From: an uncultured Pirellulaceae bacterium | Lineage (GTDB): Bacteria; Planctomycetota; Planctomycetia; Pirellulales; Pirellulaceae | DNA: 64,000 bases | Direction: 5' to 3' | Assembly: GCA_937928555.1 (NCBI GenBank) | Contig: CALFWR010000004.1 | Coordinates: 15,513 to 79,512, forward strand | In this document: in pieces, positions 18,474 through 24,023 of the stretch | Layout of the letters: each line of letters opens with the position of its first letter | How positions within the stretch are numbered: position 1 is the first letter of the stretch | Notes under the pieces: model-generated | What the model saw: the letters and a program-made list of their open reading frames with translations, nothing else | The model's database searches: none | What the model was told of the DNA's origin: nothing | Translations under genes and position numbers: made by a program

Positions 18474-20402
18474 CTACACATCAATTTCAATCGCGTCGGC
18501 GTCTTCGGCCCGCTCCATGATAAAGCGATACCGCGCCGAAGCGTCTTTGCCCATCAAATCGCCAATGATCCGGTCGGTCTCCAGCTGATCATCGACTTCA
18601 ACCTGTACCAACCGGCGGGTCTCGGGATTGAGCGTTGTCTCCCAGAGCACCTTGGGCATCATCTCGCCCAGGCCCTTGAACCTTGTGATCTCCGGATTGG
18701 CGCGGCCTGAATGCTGTTCAAGAATTCTTGCTCTCGCTTCTTCGTCGGCGGCCCAATGTGTTTCTTTCCCGATGTTGATGCGAAACAGCGGCGGCACCGC
18801 GATGTACAAGTGCCCATTGGAAATCAGCTGCGGCATGTGGCGATAAAAGAAAGTCAACAACAGGGTGGTGATGTGGTGTCCGTCAGAATCTGCATCGGCA
18901 AGCAAAATGATCTTTTGGTATCGCAGACCGCCAATGTTGAAGCTTGTCCCCAGACCGCAGCCGATTGACGCCACTAGATCCTGAATCTCGCGATTTTCCA
19001 CGATCTTTTTCATCGCCGCGCTTTCAGTGTTGAGCACCTTGCCTCGCAGCGGCAGGATCGCCTGAAAGTTCCGGTCGCGGCCCTGTTTGGCGCTTCCGCC
19101 GGCCGAATCACCTTCGACGATGAACAACTCCGATCGATCGCGGCCGCTGGCCATGCAGTCCGAAAGCTTTCCCGGAAGCATCGATTTCTTGCCGCTGACT
19201 TTGCGTGAAATCGAAGCCGACGCCGCCCGCGACGCCGCCCGAGCTCGAGCCGCAGCGATGATCCGCGCCACGATGCCGTCGGCGACGGAGCGATTCTCGT
19301 TCATCCACTGCTCCAGTGCCGGCCGCAATTCGCCGTCGATCATGCTGGTGACGTGAGGGTTGTTCAACCGGTCCTTGGTCTGGCCCTGAAACTGCGGTTC
19401 CTTGATAAATACGCTGATAATCGCCACGATACCCTCGCGGATGTCGTCGTGTGAAATCTTCACCCCGCGAGGCGTCAGGTTGTGCATGTCGATGTAGTTG
19501 CGAACGGCTTTGACCAGGCCGCTGCGAAAACCGTTTTCGTGAGTTCCGCCGCTGCCGGTCGGGATTCCGTTGACGTAAGAGCGAACGTGTTCGTCAGTGG
19601 AGTCCGTCCAGTGCAGCACCAGTTCGAATCGCTCGTCGTCTTTGGCCGCGGTGTGTGAAAAGGGTGCGTCGTGGATCGACGACGCGGAACGTTCTTTGGA
19701 AACTTTGGTCAGAAAGTCCACGACTCCATTTTCATGATGGAACGATTCCTTGACCCCGTTAACGTCGTCCTGAAAGTTGACTTTCACGCCACGATGCAGA
19801 AAGCTGATGATCTCGATGCGGCTACGGATGGTAGCCGGATTGAAAACCGTTTTGGGAAAGATCGTCGGGTCCGGTGTAAAGGTTATCGTGGTGCCGGTGC
19901 CGCGCACGGCACCTTTGAGTTTTTGCAGTTTTGTTTTGGGCTGGCCTTTGCTGAACTCCATCCGGTACTGCGCCCCGTCGCGTTTGACGACCGCGATCAG
20001 TGATTTGGAGAGCGCATTGACGACCGACGCGCCGACACCGTGAAGCCCACCGGCGGTCTTGTAGTTGTCACCTTCGAATTTGCCGCCCGCATGCAGGACC
20101 GTTAGCACCGTTTCGAGAGCACTCTTTTTCGTTTTGGCATGCTTGTCGACGGGGATGCCGCGGCCGTTGTCCGAAACGCTTACTGTCATCGCAGTTTTGT
20201 GCAAGTGAACATTGATCTCGCTCGCGTGGCCGTTCATGGCTTCGTCGACCGAGTTGTCCATGATCTCCCAGACAAGGTGATGCAGCCCCGCCATGCCGAC
20301 ACCGCCGATGTACATCCCTGGTCGCTTGCGGACCGGTTCCAGGCCTTCCAGAACGGTGATGTTTTCGGATTTGTAAGATTTCTTTTTGGTTGCTGCTGCC
20401 AT
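18474..20402 (-). CDS. Type IIA topoisomerase B subunit (ParE/GyrB-like, no long insert)
   Basis: LEGLEPVRKRPGMYIG, DNSVDE, DNGRGIP, GGLHGVGASVVNALS, VEGDSAGGSAKQGR, PLRGKVLN, DADSDG, RFKGLGEM. Confidence 0.95.
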   Translation of the reverse strand: MAAATKKKSYKSENITVLEGLEPVRKRPGMYIGGVGMAGLHHLVWEIMDNSVDEAMNGHASEINVHLHKTAMTVSVSDNGRGIPVDKHAKTKKSALETVLTVLHAGGKFEGDNYKTAGGLHGVGASVVNALSKSLIAVVKRDGAQYRMEFSKGQPKTKLQKLKGAVRGTGTTITFTPDPTIFPKTVFNPATIRSRIEIISFLHRGVKVNFQDDVNGVKESFHHENGVVDFLTKVSKERSASSIHDAPFSHTAAKDDERFELVLHWTDSTDEHVRSYVNGIPTGSGGTHENGFRSGLVKAVRNYIDMHNLTPRGVKISHDDIREGIVAIISVFIKEPQFQGQTKDRLNNPHVTSMIDGELRPALEQWMNENRSVADGIVARIIAAARARAASRAASASISRKVSGKKSMLPGKLSDCMASGRDRSELFIVEGDSAGGSAKQGRDRNFQAILPLRGKVLNTESAAMKKIVENREIQDLVASIGCGLGTSFNIGGLRYQKIILLADADSDGHHITTLLLTFFYRHMPQLISNGHLYIAVPPLFRINIGKETHWAADEEARARILEQHSGRANPEITRFKGLGEMMPKVLWETTLNPETRRLVQVEVDDQLETDRIIGDLMGKDASARYRFIMERAEDADAIEIDV

Positions 20403-20420
20403 GTTTTTTCCTGGTGTCGT

Positions 20421-20746
20421 CATGAACACCCTCCCTCCGGGCCCTCCGGGGAGGGTCAACGTATCAGCGTCGGGGAGGGCTGGGTTCGGTTCCTGTTGAG
20501 GCTCAAATTTGTCTGGGTGTTGTCTTTGGTTGAACTAAAAATTCCGCGTGTCGAACGCCCCATCATGAACACCCTCACTCCGGGAGGGTCAACGTATCAG
20601 CGTCGGGGAGGGCTGGGTTTGGTTCCTGTTGAGGATCAAATTTGTCTGGGTGTTGTCTTTGGTTGAACTAAAGATTCCGCGTGTCGAACGCCCCATCATG
20701 AACACCCTCACTCCGGGAGGGTCAACGTATCAGCGTCGGGGAGGGC
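20421..20746. repeat. About 133-bp tandem repeat (2 full units plus a third palindrome), each unit carrying a CCCTCCC-family palindrome
   Basis: CATGAACACCCTC starts at 20421, 20564 and 20697; linkers near-identical. Confidence 0.92.
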
Positions 20747-20876
20747 GACGAAACCCTTCCGTTCAATGTGTTTTGTTTTTCGCTTCAACTGGCTCTATGT
20801 CCTGTTGTGGTTTTTCAAGGTCACTCAATTGGAGACTTATCGCAGATATTTACAACTTGTTCCGATGGCAACAAAG

Positions 20877-20924
20877 CCCTCCCCGGCCGCTACCGCGTCC
20901 GACCCTCCCGAAGGGAGGGTGATC
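20877..20924 (+). repeat. 48-bp palindromic repeat, copy downstream of the DUF559 gene
   Basis: CCCTCCCCGGCCGCTACCGCGTCCGACCCTCCCGAAGGGAGGGTGATC, identical to 21446-21493. Confidence 0.95.
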
Positions 20925-20990
20925 AGAAAAAACTCACACATTTCCTTTCTAGTGTGCGATTCGCCGCCGGGGTTCGGTTCCGCTCAAGGT

Positions 20991-21413
20991 TCAAGTCTTT
21001 CCGGGTTTGCTTTTGGATGAACTAAAAATGCCACTCCGCCGAGTCCGATCTCGTTTGGAGTATTCGTAGTCGATATCGAGAAACCGGCAGATGCCTTTGC
21101 CAACAATCTCGATGTCGTCTTCGACTTCTTTGTCGCTGAATCGCAAGATATTCCAATCAAGTTTTCGAAAAACCTGTTCTCTGGTGATGTCATGTTCTGC
21201 GGTCTGATCGTGGTAGTCGCCGTCGATTTCAATAACCAACATCTTTTCGAGGCAGGCATAGTCAGCGTAGAAACCCGCGATGGGATGTTGACGACGGAAC
21301 TTCAAACCTGCGAGTTGTCTGGCGCGAAGAAGCCCCCAAAGTAGCTGCTCTGATTTTGTGGAGCGGCTACGGAGGCTTCGAGCGCGGTCGGTTTTTGAAG
21401 GTGATTGACTCAT
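20991..21413 (-). CDS. DUF559 / Vsr-like (PD-(D/E)XK) endonuclease domain protein
   Basis: RARSLR..T.SE.LLW.LLR.RQL.G.KFRRQHPI..F.ADY.C....LVIEIDG.YH...D..R.......W.ILRF. Confidence 0.9.
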   Translation of the reverse strand: MSQSPSKTDRARSLRSRSTKSEQLLWGLLRARQLAGLKFRRQHPIAGFYADYACLEKMLVIEIDGDYHDQTAEHDITREQVFRKLDWNILRFSDKEVEDDIEIVGKGICRFLDIDYEYSKRDRTRRSGIFSSSKSKPGKT

Positions 21414-21445
21414 GTGGTTCTGTTTTGCTTTGCTACTGTGAACGA

Positions 21446-21493
21446 CCCTCCCCGGCCGCTACCGCGTCCGACCCTCCCGAAGGGAGGGTGATC
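21446..21493 (+). repeat. 48-bp palindromic repeat, copy upstream of the DUF559 gene
   Basis: Identical to 20877-20924. Confidence 0.95.
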
Positions 21494-21539
21494 TTGATAT
21501 TTACAATATCCGAAAGGAGAGTGGTCCCAAATATTCCGC

Positions 21540-24023
21540 CTACTTCAACTCCGCCGGTGACTCGATCGGTGGCTCCACAATCGATGCGATCTTTCCATTT
21601 TTCTGAATCTCGTTGCCTTTCCCGCCGCGACTGGTGGTGCGGTACTTGGCGGTGGAGACCGTTTTCTTTGCGCCGCGGTTGGTCTCTACTGTCAGCAAGT
21701 CACGATCGCCTTTGGACGGTTTGAAGCCAAGCAGTTTGTCGCCTTTTGCCAGTTTGATCAGCATCACGCCCCGACCGGCACCCGAGAGAAAGTTGATCTC
21801 TTCGGAAGGACAGATCATCGCCCGGCAATTCTGTGACACCGCCAGGATGGTTTCCTCGGCGTTGATCGGAAACACGCCAATGATCTGTGCATCCGGCTTG
21901 ACTCGTGAAAATCGTCGACCGCTGCGAGTTGAAACTTCGGCGAACGATTCGAGACTGAACCGCAGCGCATACCCGTCGCTCGACGCAGCGAGCCCGTGAA
22001 TCTCGGGGCAGTATTCGGGTTCCTTGGGGTCTTCCTTGATGTCGCCGATGGCTCGCTTGTCAAACGAAACCACACTGACGATTTTTTCACCGTCCTTGAG
22101 TTTGAAAATCTTTTGAATGGGATCGCCGAAACCGGTCGAAGCTGGAATATCGATCATCCGCGCGGTGTAGCAGAACCCCATGGAGCTGAAAAATCCAACG
22201 GTCGCCCGCGTCGAACCGGCGATCACTGCCAACACGCTGTCGCCGCTGCGGGTGCGGCTTTTGGCCGGATCCTTGATCTCACGCTGACGTTTCACCCAGC
22301 CATCACGCGTGATCAGGATGTGGCAATCTTCGGCTACGATGAAATCTTCCGCGTTGATTTCGATGTCCGCCTGGGCGGCTTCGATGACGGTGCGGCGTCT
22401 GGCTTCTTTGTCCTTGCAGTAATCGCGGAGGATTTCCTGAATCTCATCGCGAACAATTTTCCACCGCCCCGAAGCGTTGGTATCGTTGGTGTCTTCCTTG
22501 AGCAACTGGCGAATCTGCCGGGCCCGTTTTTGTTTGTCCTTGAACTCTTCTTCGATCAGGTTGATTTCCAGTTTGGCCAGGCGGTACAGCTTCAGCTCCA
22601 GAATCGCATCGGTCTGTTCGGCGTCCAAGCCGCCTTTGGCTGCCGGGAATCGCTTCATGATTTTCTGGGCAGCATCGGCTTTCCCGTCGGAGCGACGAAT
22701 GATGCGAATGATTTCGTCCAGGGCATCAAAGACCGTAATGAAACCCTGCAGGATATGGAGCCGCTTCTCCAGTTTGGCCAACTCGTTTTCCAGCCGACGG
22801 GTGACCACATCCAGGCGGAAGTTAAGGAAGTACCAGAGGATCTCCTTGAGCCCCAGTTTGGCAGGCGCGCCGACTTTGGGGTTTTCGGTGGGAACCAGGC
22901 AAGTCATGTTGACGTTGAAGTTGGTTTGCAGCTGGGTATTTTTGTACAGGTACGCGAGGACTTTCTTGGGGTCGGCGTCCTTTTTGAGCAAAATATCGAT
23001 CCGCGTATCGTCGGTCGAAAGGTCGCGGGCCTCGAGCGCCAACGGTAGCTTGCCGCTGAAGATCAACTCGTTCATCGACTCGACAAGGTTGGCTTTGTTG
23101 ACGCCGTAAGGGATGGACGTGATCTGGAGCACTCTCGAACGCGAGCCCTTGCCGGCTTTGACGACTTCGGAGGTGCCGCGAAGCTGCAGACTGCCCTGCC
23201 CTGTGGCGTACATGTCGCGAAGTTCTTTTTTCGTGTTGATGATCTGGCCGCCGGTAGGAAAGTCCGGGCCCTGAATGGCATCGTTGCCGACAAGTTGATA
23301 CGGCTTGATCTCGGGGTCCTTGAGAAGTTTCAGCAGCGCGTTGCAGACTTCCTTGAGATTGTGTGGCGGAATGTTGGTCGCCATCCCAACCGCGATGCCG
23401 GTGGCACCGTTGATCAGCAAGTTGGGAATCCGCGAGGGAAGGACGACCGGTTCTTCTTCGGTGCCGTCGTAGTTTTCCTTGAATGTCACCGTCCGCGTCG
23501 CGAGGTCAGCAAGGATCTCGCCGGCGATCTTTGTCAGGCGACATTCGGTGTATCGCATCGCAGCCGCATTGTCGCCGTCGACCGAACCAAAGTTCCCGCT
23601 ACCATCGACCAGAGGAATCCGAAGCGAAAACGGTTGGGCGATCCGGACCAGAGCGTCGTAAATCGAACTGTCGCCGTGCGGGTGGTACTTACCCATCACG
23701 TCACCGACGACTTTGGCACACTTGCGGTGTTTTGCCGAATGGTAAAGCCGCTCTTCGCCCATCGTGTAGAGGATCCGCCGCTGGACTGGCTTGAGCCCAT
23801 CACGGACATCCGGCAGTGCCCGGCTGGTAATCACCGACAGCGAGTAGTTCAGATATCGCGACTGCGCTGCGAGACGAAGCGGAATCCTCCGCAGCGACCC
23901 GTCTTCGAGGTCATCGAACACCGTTTCCTCTGCATCAGCCTTTCCGTTTTTGGATGACTTTCGTTTGGTGGTGCTCTTTTTGCGGGTGCTGGTTTTCTTC
24001 TTGCTGGATCGGCGTTTCGCCAC
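21540..24023 (-). CDS. Type IIA topoisomerase A subunit (ParC/GyrA-like)
   Basis: [39 protein letters not shown] (catalytic Tyr), [25 protein letters not shown], beta-pinwheel C-terminal repeats. Confidence 0.95.

What the first reader, a model, noticed from the sequence alone, without database searches (positions are those of the whole stretch)
20877..21493. DUF559 nuclease gene bracketed by perfect 48-bp palindromic direct repeats: a possible RAYT/REP-like selfish unit using a Vsr-type nuclease
Seen: identical 48-mers at 20877 and 21446 enclose an intact DUF559 gene. Each contains the hairpin ACCCTCCC-GAA-GGGAGGGT preceded by CCCTCCCC. Three variants of the same motif lie in opposite orientation at 20427-20746. 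The cluster sits between the A and B subunit genes of a topoisomerase pair. Established: RAYT transposase genes are flanked by their REP palindromes. Inference: DUF559 may be the maintaining or dispersing enzyme for this palindrome family, or may be carried by it. I know of no characterised mechanism.
Basis: partly seen in the sequence, partly recalled or inferred. Interest (0 to 1): 0.72.

Follow-up and report, generated by a model that had tools for sequence, protein, structure and literature searches.

The report
Nuclease gene bracketed by triplex repeats
A small Vsr-like (DUF559) nuclease gene sits between copies of a long-known but unexplained bacterial repeat (the BoxC / intrastrand-triplex motif). 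The same gene-plus-repeat unit recurs in many phyla and is gained or lost as one piece, which makes the nuclease a candidate for the repeat's missing partner enzyme.

Summary
Identical 48-mers at 20877 and 21446 bracket an intact DUF559 gene that lies between a gyrA/parC-like and a gyrB/parE-like gene. Three decayed copies in the opposite orientation lie at 20428-20745.

The perfect direct repeat is a local rearrangement. In relatives at the same locus the gene is flanked by the same motif as inverted arms: hairpin, small spacer hairpin, then a third G or C block.

The closest relatives by GyrA (82-87% identity) are a mix of occupied sites, clean empty sites and one solo-hairpin scar. The arms and the gene therefore come and go together.

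Across 63 short DUF559 genes from many phyla, 35 carry such a three-block motif next to them, against 6 of 242 control genes (p about 1e-22). Searched from the motif side, most copies are solitary or form gene-less doublets with the same geometry.

The motif is a variant of the published BoxC / PIT / TM_ECO intrastrand-triplex repeat, whose authors found no associated mobility function. E. coli's own DUF559 gene, ycjD, also has a BoxC next to it.

Best reading: this is the gene-bearing form of that repeat family, REP/RAYT-like in logic but with a Vsr-fold nuclease. The mechanism is inferred, not shown.

The parts
21540..24023 (-). Type IIA topoisomerase subunit A gene (gyrA/parC-like). It lies upstream of the cassette on the gene-sense strand.
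   Evidence: Pfam DNA_topoisoIV E=3e-143. The nearest named relative is Mariniblastus fucicola at 80% identity.
21446..21493 (-). Upstream arm of the cassette (48-mer copy 1). Read on the gene-sense strand it is hairpin ACCCTCCC-TTC-GGGAGGGT, spacer hairpin CGGaCGC-GGTA-GCGgCCG, then a free GGGGAGGG block.
   Evidence: DNA fold -15.6 kcal/mol, z = -3.9. It has the same position and orientation as the upstream arm in relatives L001, L005 and L008.
20991..21413 (-). DUF559 / Vsr-fold nuclease gene, 140 aa. The domain spans aa 7-112, with E62, D64 and H68 invariant and D69 nearly invariant.
   Evidence: Pfam PF04480 E=4.6e-30. Alignment invariants. AF2 model with pLDDT 82; Foldseek gives 3hrl at TMt 0.88 and I-Bth0305I (3r3p) at TMt 0.76.
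20970..21032 (-). The last 14 codons and the first 21 nt after the stop codon of the DUF559 gene. This stretch is homologous (76-85%) to part of each 133-nt repeat unit.
   Evidence: families D2 and D4.
20877..20924 (-). 48-mer copy 2. It is a perfect direct duplicate of the upstream arm, placed 66 nt downstream of the gene. Its orientation is non-canonical.
   Evidence: A unitig junction at single-copy depth supports it.
20747..20876 (.). 130-nt linker between 48-mer copy 2 and the first gyrB-side arm. No similarity was found to the gene, to relatives' cassettes or to the 133-nt unit. It holds the 11-mer GATATTTACAA at 20845-20855.
20449..20714 (.). Tandem repeat of a 133-nt unit: two full units at 98% identity, with partial units on both sides. 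Each unit is a DUF559 3'-end-like segment plus one downstream-type arm.
   Evidence: D1-D6. Depth of about 540-580 against about 125 for single-copy DNA suggests more copies than were assembled.
20704..20745 (-). Downstream-type arm, copy a. On the sense strand it reads CCCTCCCC, spacer, then hairpin ACCCTCCC-GGA-GTGAGGGT with one mismatch.
   Evidence: weak fold, z about -0.7 to -1.
20571..20612 (-). Downstream-type arm, copy b. It is identical to copy a.
20428..20479 (-). Downstream-type arm, copy c, with a 10-nt insertion in the hairpin. It ends 26 nt upstream of the gyrB start codon. The downstream arm in L005 and L008 likewise lies just upstream of gyrB.
21496..21506 (.). Second copy of the 11-mer GATATTTACAA. 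With 20845-20855 it brackets the block 48-mer, gene, 48-mer.
   Evidence: Its significance is unknown and it is not present in relatives.
18474..20402 (-). Type IIA topoisomerase subunit B gene (gyrB/parE-like), downstream of the cassette.
   Evidence: Pfam DNA_gyraseB, Toprim and HATPase_c.

Best explanation
What it is. The locus holds the gene-bearing form of the BoxC / PIT / intrastrand-triplex repeat family. It is a cassette of about 0.55 kb: a DUF559 (Vsr-fold, E-D-x-H-D type) nuclease gene between two three-block arms.

The arms. Each arm has a pyrimidine block, a loop and a purine block, which together form a hairpin. A small hairpin of variable sequence follows, then a third purine or pyrimidine block that could lie in the hairpin's groove as a triplex.

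History, shown by comparison. The cassette entered the short gyrA-gyrB spacer of a Mariniblastus-like planctomycete lineage. It has since been lost several times, once leaving a solo hairpin. In this genome it was rearranged. The upstream arm was copied perfectly to the downstream side, giving the two 48-mers. The downstream arm, together with the gene's 3' end, was amplified into 133-nt tandem units.

Mechanism, inferred and not shown. The nuclease recognises and nicks the folded or distorted arms. Recombinational repair from another copy then homogenises, duplicates or spreads arms and cassette, and gene-less doublets are its non-autonomous products. The logic is that of RAYT and REP, with a different enzyme class and a different kind of repeat.
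For: Unit behaviour at this locus:
- Relatives L001, L005 and L008 carry DUF559 at the same site, flanked by the same motif as 46-53-nt inverted arms.
- L227, the window's sister lineage (bootstrap 99.5%), and L230, L231 and L228 have 14-90-nt gyrA-gyrB spacers with no gene and no motif.
- L232 keeps a single hairpin joined to the sequence that follows the downstream arm in L005. This is a deletion scar.

Generality:
- 39 of 67 DUF559 genes from many phyla have a flanking inverted repeat of this type.
- Motif density is 3.4 per kb in DUF559 flanks against 0.115 per kb in the rest of the same loci.
- 18 of 63 have the motif on both sides and 35 of 63 on at least one side. Control genes give 1 of 242 and 6 of 242; Fisher p = 8.6e-13 and 1.3e-22.
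- The neighbours are ordinary, unrelated genes.

From the motif side:
- Of 136 strict instances in 120 metagenome contigs, 12 lie within 300 nt of a DUF559 gene.
- There are 17 gene-less doublets of the form hairpin-spacer-G block, 20-60 nt, C block-spacer-hairpin. Their geometry matches the cassette and their ends are short terminal inverted repeats.
- In 4 of 5 motif-seeded pairs spaced 380-500 nt apart, the pair encloses a DUF559 gene.

Selection on a folded form:
- 92 of 147 distinct spacers form at least 7 uninterrupted Watson-Crick pairs, against 0.24% of shuffles. The stem sequences are unrelated, the loops are mostly GNA triloops, and there are almost no G.T pairs.

Protein:
- The model has pLDDT 82. 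The best structural matches are 3hrl and the homing endonuclease I-Bth0305I.
- E62, D64 and H68 are invariant and D69 is nearly invariant.

Independent case:
- E. coli ycjD (DUF559) has TM_ECO number 9 about 170 nt downstream. It also has a decayed pyrimidine arm at its stop codon and a duplicated copy of its 3' end. The last feature parallels the window's 133-nt units.
- Published work links TM_ECO loci to local rearrangement, including deletions that leave a single stem-loop, with the mechanism unknown.

Movement between loci:
- The DUF559 of L010 is 71% identical to that of L001 but sits in a different locus.
Against: - No experiment or computation here shows that the protein binds or cuts the arms.
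- At this locus the DUF559 tree is congruent with the host tree. The data fit an old, mostly vertically inherited insertion with losses and show no recent movement.
- No target-site duplication was found beyond one unexplained 11-mer.
- No other motif copy lies in the 64-kb window.
- 28 of 63 DUF559 genes show no motif.
- Arms occur in two geometries, with the third block either proximal or distal to the gene.
- E. coli strains without ycjD still carry BoxC copies, so the repeats persist without the gene, at least in the short term.
- The one DUF559 protein with functional data, Caulobacter VsrA, is interpreted as a mismatch-repair nuclease tied to a cytosine methyltransferase.
Confidence: 0.5

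Rival explanations
1. The arms are cis-acting parts of the gene, not a mobile or enzyme-substrate pair. They would be structured 5' and 3' flanks (hairpin, triplex or long-range stem) that insulate, terminate or throttle expression of a potentially toxic nuclease, and they travel with the gene for that reason. Solitary copies elsewhere would then be remnants or serve unrelated structural roles.
For: - Arms sit at fixed short distances from the start and stop codons.
- In L001, L005, L012, L022, L059 and L142 the two arms are complementary over 43-53 nt and could close a long stem around the ORF.
- The blocks contain GGAGG/CCTCC, which are Shine-Dalgarno and anti-Shine-Dalgarno-like strings.
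- Caulobacter vsrA expression is tightly regulated and SOS-induced.
Against: - Two different geometries relative to the gene exist.
- Most motif copies lie within 300 nt of no DUF559 gene, and gene-less doublets are common.
- Spacer stems are perfect Watson-Crick with GNA triloops and almost no G.T pairs. That looks like DNA rather than RNA selection.
- There are no T-tracts and no terminator or promoter-like sites.
- No Rfam family matches.
- PIT elements were reported to have no promoter or terminator activity.
Confidence: 0.2
2. The association is passive. BoxC-like arms are fragile, recombinogenic DNA. Small horizontally moving genes such as DUF559, which may be an ordinary very-short-patch-type repair nuclease, are preferentially captured or retained at such hot spots. 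There is no enzyme-repeat relationship.
For: - TM_ECO loci are rearrangement hot spots in E. coli.
- L001 has about 5 kb of extra genes (a BlaI-like repressor and AbiEii) inserted beside the cassette.
- The fabI-sapF site in E. coli holds either ycjD with BoxC or eefRABCD.
- Caulobacter VsrA behaves as a methylation-linked repair nuclease.
Against: - The cargo is specific. Arms at ORF-size spacing enclose DUF559 in 4 of 5 unbiased cases, and no other gene family was seen inside.
- The arms are symmetric, at fixed distances, and are absent from clean empty sites, so the hot spot did not exist before the gene arrived.
- The same architecture recurs in several phyla with lineage-specific block sequences.
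Confidence: 0.15
3. The two perfect direct 48-mers are the recombination ends of a unit that excises as a circle, or is copied, by action of the enclosed nuclease at the hairpins.
For: - The 48 of 48 identity, set in otherwise diverged intergenic DNA, implies recent copying or conversion.
- Direct repeats would allow excision.
- The 48-mer region has about 9 times the organism's depth in the source metagenome, and it is abundant in samples that lack the gene.
Against: - Direct orientation is the exception. Relatives at the same locus have inverted arms, and the window fails the inverted-repeat test only because of this duplication.
- No read or contig joint corresponding to a deletion between the 48-mers or to a circle junction was seen (contigs only).
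- The canonical downstream arms are still present further on.
Confidence: 0.1

Closest known systems
BoxC repeats, also called PIT (potential intrastrand triplex) elements or TM_ECO motifs (Bachellier et al.; Hoyne et al. 2000; Holder et al. 2015, PMC4666352)
   Same: - Three consecutive blocks: a pyrimidine arm, a complementary purine arm and a second purine block. The other strand reads C-C-G.
- They are intergenic and occur singly or as tandem inverted doublets.
- They are found in many phyla.
- Their loci are prone to indels, including deletions that leave one stem-loop.
- The window's blocks (CCCTCCC / GGGAGGG / GGGAGGG) are mirror-symmetric homopurine/homopyrimidine blocks, as required for a triplex.
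   Different: - Here the link between blocks 2 and 3 is a 16-17-nt hairpin of variable sequence rather than a 2-3-nt loop. Finders that allow loops of 1-6 nt would miss it.
- The block sequence is GGGAGGG, not GGGAGAGGG/GGGGTGAGGG.
- The published work reports no associated mobility function and does not mention DUF559 or ycjD (no occurrence of 'endonuclease' or 'DUF').
REP sequences / REPINs and their RAYT transposases (Nunvar et al. 2010; Bertels and Rainey 2011; from my own knowledge)
   Same: - A single-copy enzyme gene is flanked by inverted copies of the palindromic repeat family that is also scattered through the genome.
- Gene-less doublets resemble REPINs.
- The gene is often vertically inherited and repeatedly lost.
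- Hairpins are probably recognised as single-stranded DNA.
   Different: - The enzyme is a 125-140-aa PD-(D/E)XK Vsr-fold nuclease, not an HUH tyrosine transposase.
- The repeat is a three-block purine/pyrimidine motif, not a GTAG-headed imperfect palindrome.
- Copy number in this genome appears low.
- No mobilisation chemistry is known for such a nuclease.
I-Bth0305I and the EDxHD homing endonucleases (PDB 3r3p)
   Same: - It is the second-best structural and profile match.
- The catalytic E, D, H and D residues are conserved.
- The window's gene shows presence/absence polymorphism at one precise site between conserved essential genes, as free-standing homing genes do.
   Different: - I-Bth0305I is intron-encoded and multidomain and footprints about 60 bp. 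The window's protein is essentially the catalytic domain plus two N-terminal helices.
- Homing endonuclease genes are not known to carry structured terminal arms or to leave gene-less doublets.
- No cleavage target is known here.
Vsr and Caulobacter VsrA (very-short-patch mismatch endonucleases; PMC12907096)
   Same: - They share the fold superfamily.
- VsrA contains a DUF559 domain and damages DNA when its cognate methylation is missing.
- They recognise distorted DNA (a T:G mismatch) and nick it.
   Different: - No cytosine methyltransferase is linked here.
- The association with flanking triplex-type arms has no counterpart in the Vsr literature that I could search.
E. coli ycjD (b1289)
   Same: - It is a DUF559 protein of 117 aa in a short intergenic slot (fabI-sapF).
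- It has a BoxC about 170 nt downstream, a decayed arm at its stop codon and a duplicated 3' end.
- It is present in 3375 of 5426 genomes, with an alternative gene set at the same site in the rest.
   Different: - Only one intact arm is present.
- The block sequence is the enterobacterial type.
- The alternative allele is a 5-kb efflux operon rather than an empty spacer.

Membership tests
DUF559 (PF04480), Vsr-like PD-(D/E)XK nucleases | The sequence matches the family HMM above the curated cut-off. | tested here: met
   104.1 bits against a cut-off of 20.6, E=4.6e-30, covering profile positions 3-108 of 109.
DUF559 (PF04480), Vsr-like PD-(D/E)XK nucleases | Restriction-endonuclease-like fold with conserved acidic and histidine catalytic residues. 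| tested here: met
   AF2 model with pLDDT 82. Foldseek gives 3hrl at TMt 0.88 and 3r3p at TMt 0.76. E62, D64 and H68 are invariant and D69 is at least 90% conserved in 39 sequences.
DUF559 (PF04480), Vsr-like PD-(D/E)XK nucleases | Nuclease activity. | not testable with these tools
   This needs purified protein.
BoxC / PIT / TM intrastrand-triplex motif | Three consecutive blocks, with blocks 1 and 2 Watson-Crick complementary (pyrimidine/purine) and block 3 a purine or pyrimidine copy able to act as a third strand. | tested here: met
   The blocks are CCCTCCC(C) / ACCCTCCC / GGGAGGGT, and GGGAGGG is mirror-symmetric. The DNA fold leaves the third block unpaired next to the hairpin.
BoxC / PIT / TM intrastrand-triplex motif | Short connecting loops: 1-6 nt in the ITxF definition and 2-3 nt in E. 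coli. | tested here: not met
   The first loop is 3 nt. The second connector is 16-17 nt and folds into its own hairpin. In 147 distinct spacers from other contigs the connector is 11-30 nt.
BoxC / PIT / TM intrastrand-triplex motif | Intergenic and multi-copy within a genome. | tested here: inconclusive
   All copies are intergenic. None lies elsewhere in the 64-kb window. The rest of this genome was not available.
BoxC / PIT / TM intrastrand-triplex motif | Triplex formation in vitro or in vivo. | not testable with these tools
   This has been shown only for the E. coli sequence, by others.
REP / RAYT system | The enzyme is an HUH Y1 (IS200/IS605-type) transposase. | tested here: not met
   The only Pfam hits are DUF559 and, below its cut-off, MTES_1575.
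REP / RAYT system | The enzyme gene is flanked by its repeats in inverted orientation. | tested here: met
   This holds in relatives and in 39 of 67 DUF559 genes. In the window itself the proximal pair is direct, and inverted copies lie further downstream.
REP / RAYT system | Hundreds of extragenic repeat copies per genome. | not testable with these tools
   Whole genomes could not be fetched. The window shows no further copies.
Free-standing homing endonuclease gene (EDxHD family) | Homology to a characterised homing endonuclease catalytic domain. | tested here: met
   3r3p by profile, E=8e-4, and by fold, E=3e-4.
Free-standing homing endonuclease gene (EDxHD family) | Presence/absence polymorphism at one precise site among close relatives. 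| tested here: met
   Occupied sites: window, L001, L005 and L008. Empty sites: L227, L230, L231 and L228. Scar: L232. Occupied and empty sites are interleaved on the GyrA and GyrB trees.
Free-standing homing endonuclease gene (EDxHD family) | The enzyme cleaves the empty allele, and gene phylogeny is incongruent with host phylogeny. | tested here: not met
   Cleavage is not testable. The DUF559 tree at this locus is congruent with the host tree.
MITE / TIR transposon | Terminal inverted repeats, and gene-less derivatives with the same ends. | tested here: met
MITE / TIR transposon | Target-site duplication and a recognised transposase. | tested here: not met
   There is no transposase domain. 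There is no consistent duplication, only one 11-mer pair in the window.
Integron gene cassette / attC | Diverse cargo genes separated by attC sites, with an integrase nearby. | tested here: not met
   The only cargo seen is DUF559, the neighbours are ordinary genes, and there are no R'/R'' core sites in the 48-mer.

The most novel reading that the evidence does not exclude
DUF559 nucleases are the long-missing cognate enzymes of the BoxC / PIT / intrastrand-triplex repeats found across bacteria. The gene-plus-arms cassette would be the autonomous form of a new class of selfish or semi-domesticated element. That element would spread or maintain itself by structure-specific nicking of hairpin or triplex DNA and templated repair. 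The hypervariable but always self-complementary spacer hairpins would be a by-product of that repair.
Probability: 0.35. Interest if true: 0.92.

Novelty: new variant of a known kind. Interest (0 to 1): 0.8.

Why it matters
BoxC / PIT / TM repeats have been catalogued since the 1990s. They have been shown to fold into triplex or G-quadruplex forms in vitro and have been linked to local genome instability. No function, no origin and no partner protein are known, and the main survey states that no mobility-related activity was ever found near them.

DUF559 is one of the commonest bacterial domains of unknown function. A statistically strong association of the two, across several phyla and with a consistent architecture, gives each a concrete and testable hypothesis. 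Does the nuclease bind or nick the folded repeat? Does its presence drive conversion, duplication or loss at repeat loci?

E. coli ycjD and its neighbouring BoxC make this testable in a standard laboratory strain. If the hypothesis is confirmed, it would parallel the discovery that RAYTs explain REPs, with a different enzyme fold and a non-B-DNA substrate.

Tried and rejected
- **Known RNA family.** The Rfam E-value scan of 20300-21650 and the gathering-score scan of 14 DUF559 loci found nothing at the arms. The only real hit, Acido-Lenti-1 in L069, is an unrelated sequence.
- **Defence system.** There was no PADLOC hit.
- **Shine-Dalgarno mimic or translational switch.** This was rejected. 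The G block is 30-45 nt from the start codon in the syntenic loci, and the arms occur in two geometries and without genes.
- **Integron-like cassette.** This was rejected. The cargo is specific and there is no integrase.
- **The 130-nt linker (20747-20876) as a remnant of a deleted gene or of the upstream region.** No similarity exceeded shuffles.
- **Exact look-up of the window's DUF559 protein and of Mariniblastus fucicola GyrA.** Neither is on record.
- **E. coli as a clean empty-site test.** Strains without ycjD carry a 5-kb efflux operon at that site, not an empty spacer. This gave only presence/absence numbers.
- **Excision or inversion junctions in the source metagenome.** Only assembler contigs were available, and no deletion or circle joint between the 48-mers was seen. 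One unexplained joint, 20614 to 20853, was seen at full depth.
- **Recent paralogous copies.** No pair of cassettes above 85% identity at different loci was present in the sampled loci.
- **Literature.** No paper in the searchable library links BoxC, PIT or triplex motifs with ycjD or DUF559. One paper lists DUF559 genes as enriched among predicted programmed-inversion targets. That fits the flanking inverted repeats, but the paper does not discuss it.
Full report
**1.

Two identical 48-mers (CCCTCCCCGGCCGCTACCGCGTCCGACCCTCCCGAAGGGAGGGTGATC) lie at 20877-20924 and 21446-21493 on the + strand. Between them, on the minus strand, is a 140-aa ORF at 20991-21413. It matches Pfam DUF559 at E=4.6e-30.

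Three further copies of the motif lie in the opposite orientation at 20428-20479, 20571-20612 and 20704-20745. They sit inside a 133-nt tandem repeat.

The whole cluster lies between a type IIA topoisomerase A-subunit gene (21540-24023, minus) and its B-subunit gene (18474-20402, minus). All three genes are on the same strand.

No shuffle of the window gave any match to the motif patterns, and the motif occurs nowhere else in the 64 kb. In the source marine metagenome, a unitig at the organism's single-copy depth (about 125) carries the gene-proximal junctions of both 48-mers. The direct orientation is therefore not an obvious assembly error.

As single-stranded DNA, the 48-mer folds into two adjacent hairpins: the 8-bp ACCCTCCC/GGGAGGGT stem and a smaller CGGaCGC-GGTA-GCGgCCG stem. 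The third block (CCCTCCCC or GGGGAGGG) is left free.

**2. The same locus in relatives shows the canonical form**

The nearest DUF559 homologues have 59-67% amino-acid identity. Those whose contexts could be fetched (L001-L008) all lie between the same topoisomerase genes. GyrA is 82-83% and GyrB 87-88% identical to the window's proteins over ungapped columns (local tblastn alignments give slightly higher figures).

There the gene is flanked by the same motif, but as inverted arms. Upstream is hairpin, spacer, GGGGAGGG. Downstream is CCCTCCCC, spacer, hairpin. The arms are complementary over 46-53 nt.

Read on the gene-sense strand, the parts of the window's locus compare as follows:
- The 48-mer at 21446-21493 is the canonical upstream arm.
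- The three decayed copies next to gyrB are canonical downstream arms. The last one lies just before the gyrB start codon, as in L005 and L008.
- The 48-mer at 20877-20924 is an extra, perfect, direct duplicate of the upstream arm.

The 133-nt units each consist of one downstream arm plus a segment that is 76-85% similar to the last 14 codons and 3' flank of the DUF559 gene (families D2 and D4).

**3. Gene and arms come and go together**

I fetched the gyrA-gyrB site from six further relatives chosen by GyrA identity:
- L227 (86.6% GyrA identity), L230, L231 and L228 have spacers of 48, 67, 14 and 90 nt, with neither gene nor motif.
- L229 (99-nt spacer) also lacks the gene. It has only a short GGGGAGGGTCGAGA fragment.
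- L232 has a 41-nt spacer consisting of a single hairpin (CCCTCCC-tct-GGGAGtGAGGGT). It is joined to the sequence that follows the downstream arm in L005. This is what a deletion between the two hairpins would leave.

On GyrA and GyrB trees, occupied and empty sites are interleaved. The window groups with empty L227 (bootstrap 99.5% on GyrA and 87.5% on GyrB). L001, L005 and L008 group with L232, L230 and L231.

DUF559 identities are 83% for L001-L005, 71% for L001-L008, and 59-62% for the window against the others. These follow the host tree.

The simplest history is one old insertion into a short operon spacer, followed by at least three or four losses, one of which left a scar. Repeated site-specific gain cannot be excluded. 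Either way, the arms are absent wherever the gene never was or was cleanly removed, so the unit is gene plus arms.

The nearest named organism is Mariniblastus fucicola (Pirellulaceae), at 80% GyrA identity.

**4. The architecture is general for DUF559 genes**

A scan of one genome per species returned 80 loci with DUF559 relatives from Planctomycetota, Proteobacteria, Bacteroidota, Chloroflexota and other phyla.
- *Inverted repeats.* Aligning 220 nt upstream against the reverse complement of 260 nt downstream gave a clear inverted repeat of 24-156 nt for 39 of 67 short DUF559 genes. Regions displaced by 500 nt gave no such repeat in all but one locus.
- *Repeat type.* The repeat is always of one kind: a pyrimidine arm, a loop and a purine arm, plus a further G-rich or C-rich block. 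One example is CCCTCTCCC-nnn-GGGAGAGGG-nn-GGGGTGAGGG.
- *Density.* A generic three-block detector finds 3.40 motifs per kb in DUF559 flanks against 0.115 per kb in the rest of the same loci.
- *Per gene.* 18 of 63 DUF559 genes have the motif on both sides and 35 of 63 on at least one side. Among other genes in the same loci the figures are 1 of 242 and 6 of 242. Fisher p is 8.6e-13 and 1.3e-22.
- *Neighbours.* These are ordinary and unrelated: sulfatases, lactate permease, RNase R and GcvT, HemN, dehydroquinate synthase.
- *Geometry.* Two geometries occur, with the third block either proximal or distal to the gene.
- *Read-through tails.* Some database proteins have C-terminal tails that are simply translations of the arm. 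P0077 ends in PSPAATASDPP..., the same spacer as the window's 48-mer.

**5. Seen from the motif side**

The strict pattern CCCTCCCC-N12-24-ACCCTCCC-N3-5-GGGAGGGT gave 17 loci in viral contigs.
- Of 136 instances in the metagenome loci, 12 lie within 300 nt of a DUF559 gene. All but two of the rest have no DUF559 homologue in the fetched locus.
- The commonest pair is a gene-less doublet: hairpin-spacer-G block, 20-60 nt, C block-spacer-hairpin. It has short terminal inverted repeats just outside the hairpins. There are 17 such cases. This is the cassette's geometry without the gene.
- Where two arms in motif-seeded loci are 380-500 nt apart, they enclose a DUF559 gene in 4 of 5 cases.
- In the source metagenome the 48-mer region has about 9 times the organism's depth. 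It is also abundant in two sister samples that lack the gene itself, so similar arms exist in other contexts there.

**6. The spacer hairpin is under selection for pairing, probably as DNA**

Among 147 distinct spacers, 107 form at least 5 and 92 form at least 7 uninterrupted Watson-Crick pairs. In shuffles the figures are 3% and 0.24%.

The stem sequences differ freely. The loops are mostly GNA triloops (GAA 22, GCA 12). Internal G.T pairs are almost absent.

From my own knowledge, C-GNA-G triloops such as d(GCGAAGC) are exceptionally stable DNA mini-hairpins, whereas RNA structures usually tolerate G.U pairs. In L167, two doublets share a 55-nt linker with only two differences, yet their spacer hairpins are entirely different.

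A hairpin connector brings the third block back beside the main hairpin. It can therefore replace the 2-3-nt loop of the enterobacterial motif without changing the geometry. That last point is inference.

**7. The repeat is a variant of a known family**

A full-text search for the block sequences found Holder et al. 2015 (PMC4666352). It describes the BoxC / PIT / TM_ECO intrastrand-triplex motif:
- There are 23 copies in E. coli MG1655. They are always intergenic, and five sites are tandem inverted doublets.
- The motif is present in more than 260 genomes.
- It forms a triplex in vitro.
- Its loci are unusually variable between strains, including deletions that leave one stem-loop.
- The authors found no mobility-related activity near the motifs. 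The text contains neither 'endonuclease' nor 'DUF'.

A second paper describes the same sequences as a G-quadruplex/hairpin switch.

In MG1655, TM_ECO number 9 (1351204-1351239) lies about 170 nt downstream of ycjD, the genome's annotated DUF559 gene (1351407-1351760). ycjD ends in a decayed pyrimidine arm and is followed by a duplicated copy of its own last 45 nt or so. This echoes the window's 133-nt units.

The ycjD interval is present in 3375 of 5426 complete E. coli genomes. The others carry the eefRABCD operon at that site.

I found no paper linking BoxC, PIT or triplex motifs with ycjD or DUF559. One survey lists DUF559 genes as enriched (odds ratio 14) among predicted programmed-inversion targets. 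That is what flanking inverted repeats would produce.

**8. The protein**

The AlphaFold model (pLDDT 82) is a compact alpha/beta nuclease domain preceded by two helices. The best structural matches are the Neisseria endonuclease-like protein 3hrl (TMt 0.88) and the catalytic domain of the homing endonuclease I-Bth0305I (TMt 0.76, E=3e-4). The profile search agrees.

E62, D64 and H68 are invariant and D69 nearly so in 39 homologues. From my own knowledge, this corresponds to the E-D-x-H-D signature named for that homing family.

The only DUF559 protein with functional data in the library is Caulobacter VsrA. It is SOS-induced, and it causes DNA damage when a cytosine methyltransferase is deleted.

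**9. How it most likely works**

*Shown:*
- The gene and the arms form one heritable unit.
- The unit is gained or lost at a precise site.
- The architecture is shared across phyla.
- Gene-less copies with the same geometry exist.
- The arms are selected for intrastrand pairing.

*Inferred:*
- The nuclease recognises the folded or distorted arm and nicks it.
- Repair from another copy then produces the effects seen here: conversion (two arms 48 of 48 identical in diverged DNA), partial duplications of the gene's 3' end plus an arm, hairpin-by-hairpin deletions, and the spread of doublets.

I give this model a confidence of 0.5. The rivals are:
- The arms are purely cis-regulatory or insulating parts of a toxic gene (0.2).
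- The gene is passively captured at fragile DNA (0.15).

The main weaknesses are these:
- There is no evidence that the enzyme acts on the arms.
- The DUF559 and host trees are congruent at this locus.
- There is no target duplication.
- 28 of 63 DUF559 genes have no detected motif.
- BoxC copies persist in E. coli strains that lack ycjD.

**10. Verdict**

The orientation is normally inverted. The repeat family is already known. And the locus history looks old rather than recent.

As far as the searchable literature shows, the new element is the link between DUF559 nucleases and BoxC/triplex repeats. I rate it a new variant of a known kind: a repeat family with an embedded cognate enzyme gene, with a different enzyme and a different repeat chemistry.

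Noticed in passing
window 20449-20714 (with partial units 20420-20448 and 20715-20746): The 133-nt tandem repeat is made of a downstream arm plus a copy of the DUF559 gene's last codons and 3' flank. Its read depth (about 540-580 against 125) suggests about 4-5 units, more than were assembled. E. coli ycjD shows a similar duplicated 3' end beside its BoxC.
   Followed up: partly
window 20845-20855 and 21496-21506: An 11-mer direct repeat, GATATTTACAA, brackets the whole block of 48-mer, gene and 48-mer. It is absent from relatives, and its meaning (target duplication, or trace of a larger duplication) is unknown.
   Followed up: partly
window 20614 to 20853 (run X1): A contig at full single-copy depth (123.5) joins 20614 to 20853, skipping 238 nt. 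The contig that supports the assembled arrangement has depth 92.5. The repeat region may hold an extra unit or a second haplotype.
   Followed up: no
L232 7515-7555: There is a solo hairpin (CCCTCCC-tct-GGGAGtGAGGGT) in an otherwise empty gyrA-gyrB spacer. It is followed by the sequence that lies after the downstream arm in L005. This is a deletion scar of the cassette, and its GAGTGAGGGT variant matches the window's gyrB-side arms.
   Followed up: yes
L001 6600-11700: About 5 kb of extra genes lies between the cassette's downstream arm and gyrB. They include a BlaI-type repressor (Penicillinase_R), a large Thioredoxin_7 protein and an AbiEii toxin-like gene, with a run of N. The site has taken up further cargo.
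   Followed up: no
L167 4482-4649 and 5040-5204: Two gene-less doublets 560 nt apart share a 55-nt linker with only two differences, yet their spacer hairpins have completely different sequences. The spacers look hypervariable while staying self-complementary.
   Followed up: partly
L226 (E. coli K-12, 1349500-1353000) and L233 (O157:H7): The fabI-sapF slot holds either ycjD plus a BoxC (3375 of 5426 genomes) or the eefRABCD efflux operon. A 2026 paper infers that eef was lost at least twice, and ycjD is found in its place in both lineages.
   Followed up: partly
proteins P0077, P0079, P0099 and P0016: The C-terminal tails of several database DUF559 proteins are read-through translations of the downstream arm (for example PSPAATASDPPASGRVS). 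These gene calls run into the repeat.
   Followed up: partly
L069 2050-2094: An Acido-Lenti-1 RNA (RF01687) match above the gathering score lies in a Pirellulales MAG. To my knowledge that is outside the phyla for which the motif was described. It is unrelated to the DUF559 arms.
   Followed up: no
Foldseek ranks 5-14: Several mitoribosomal large-subunit proteins of Tetrahymena and Toxoplasma resemble the DUF559 fold (probability 0.8-1.0, TMq 0.5-0.6).
   Followed up: no
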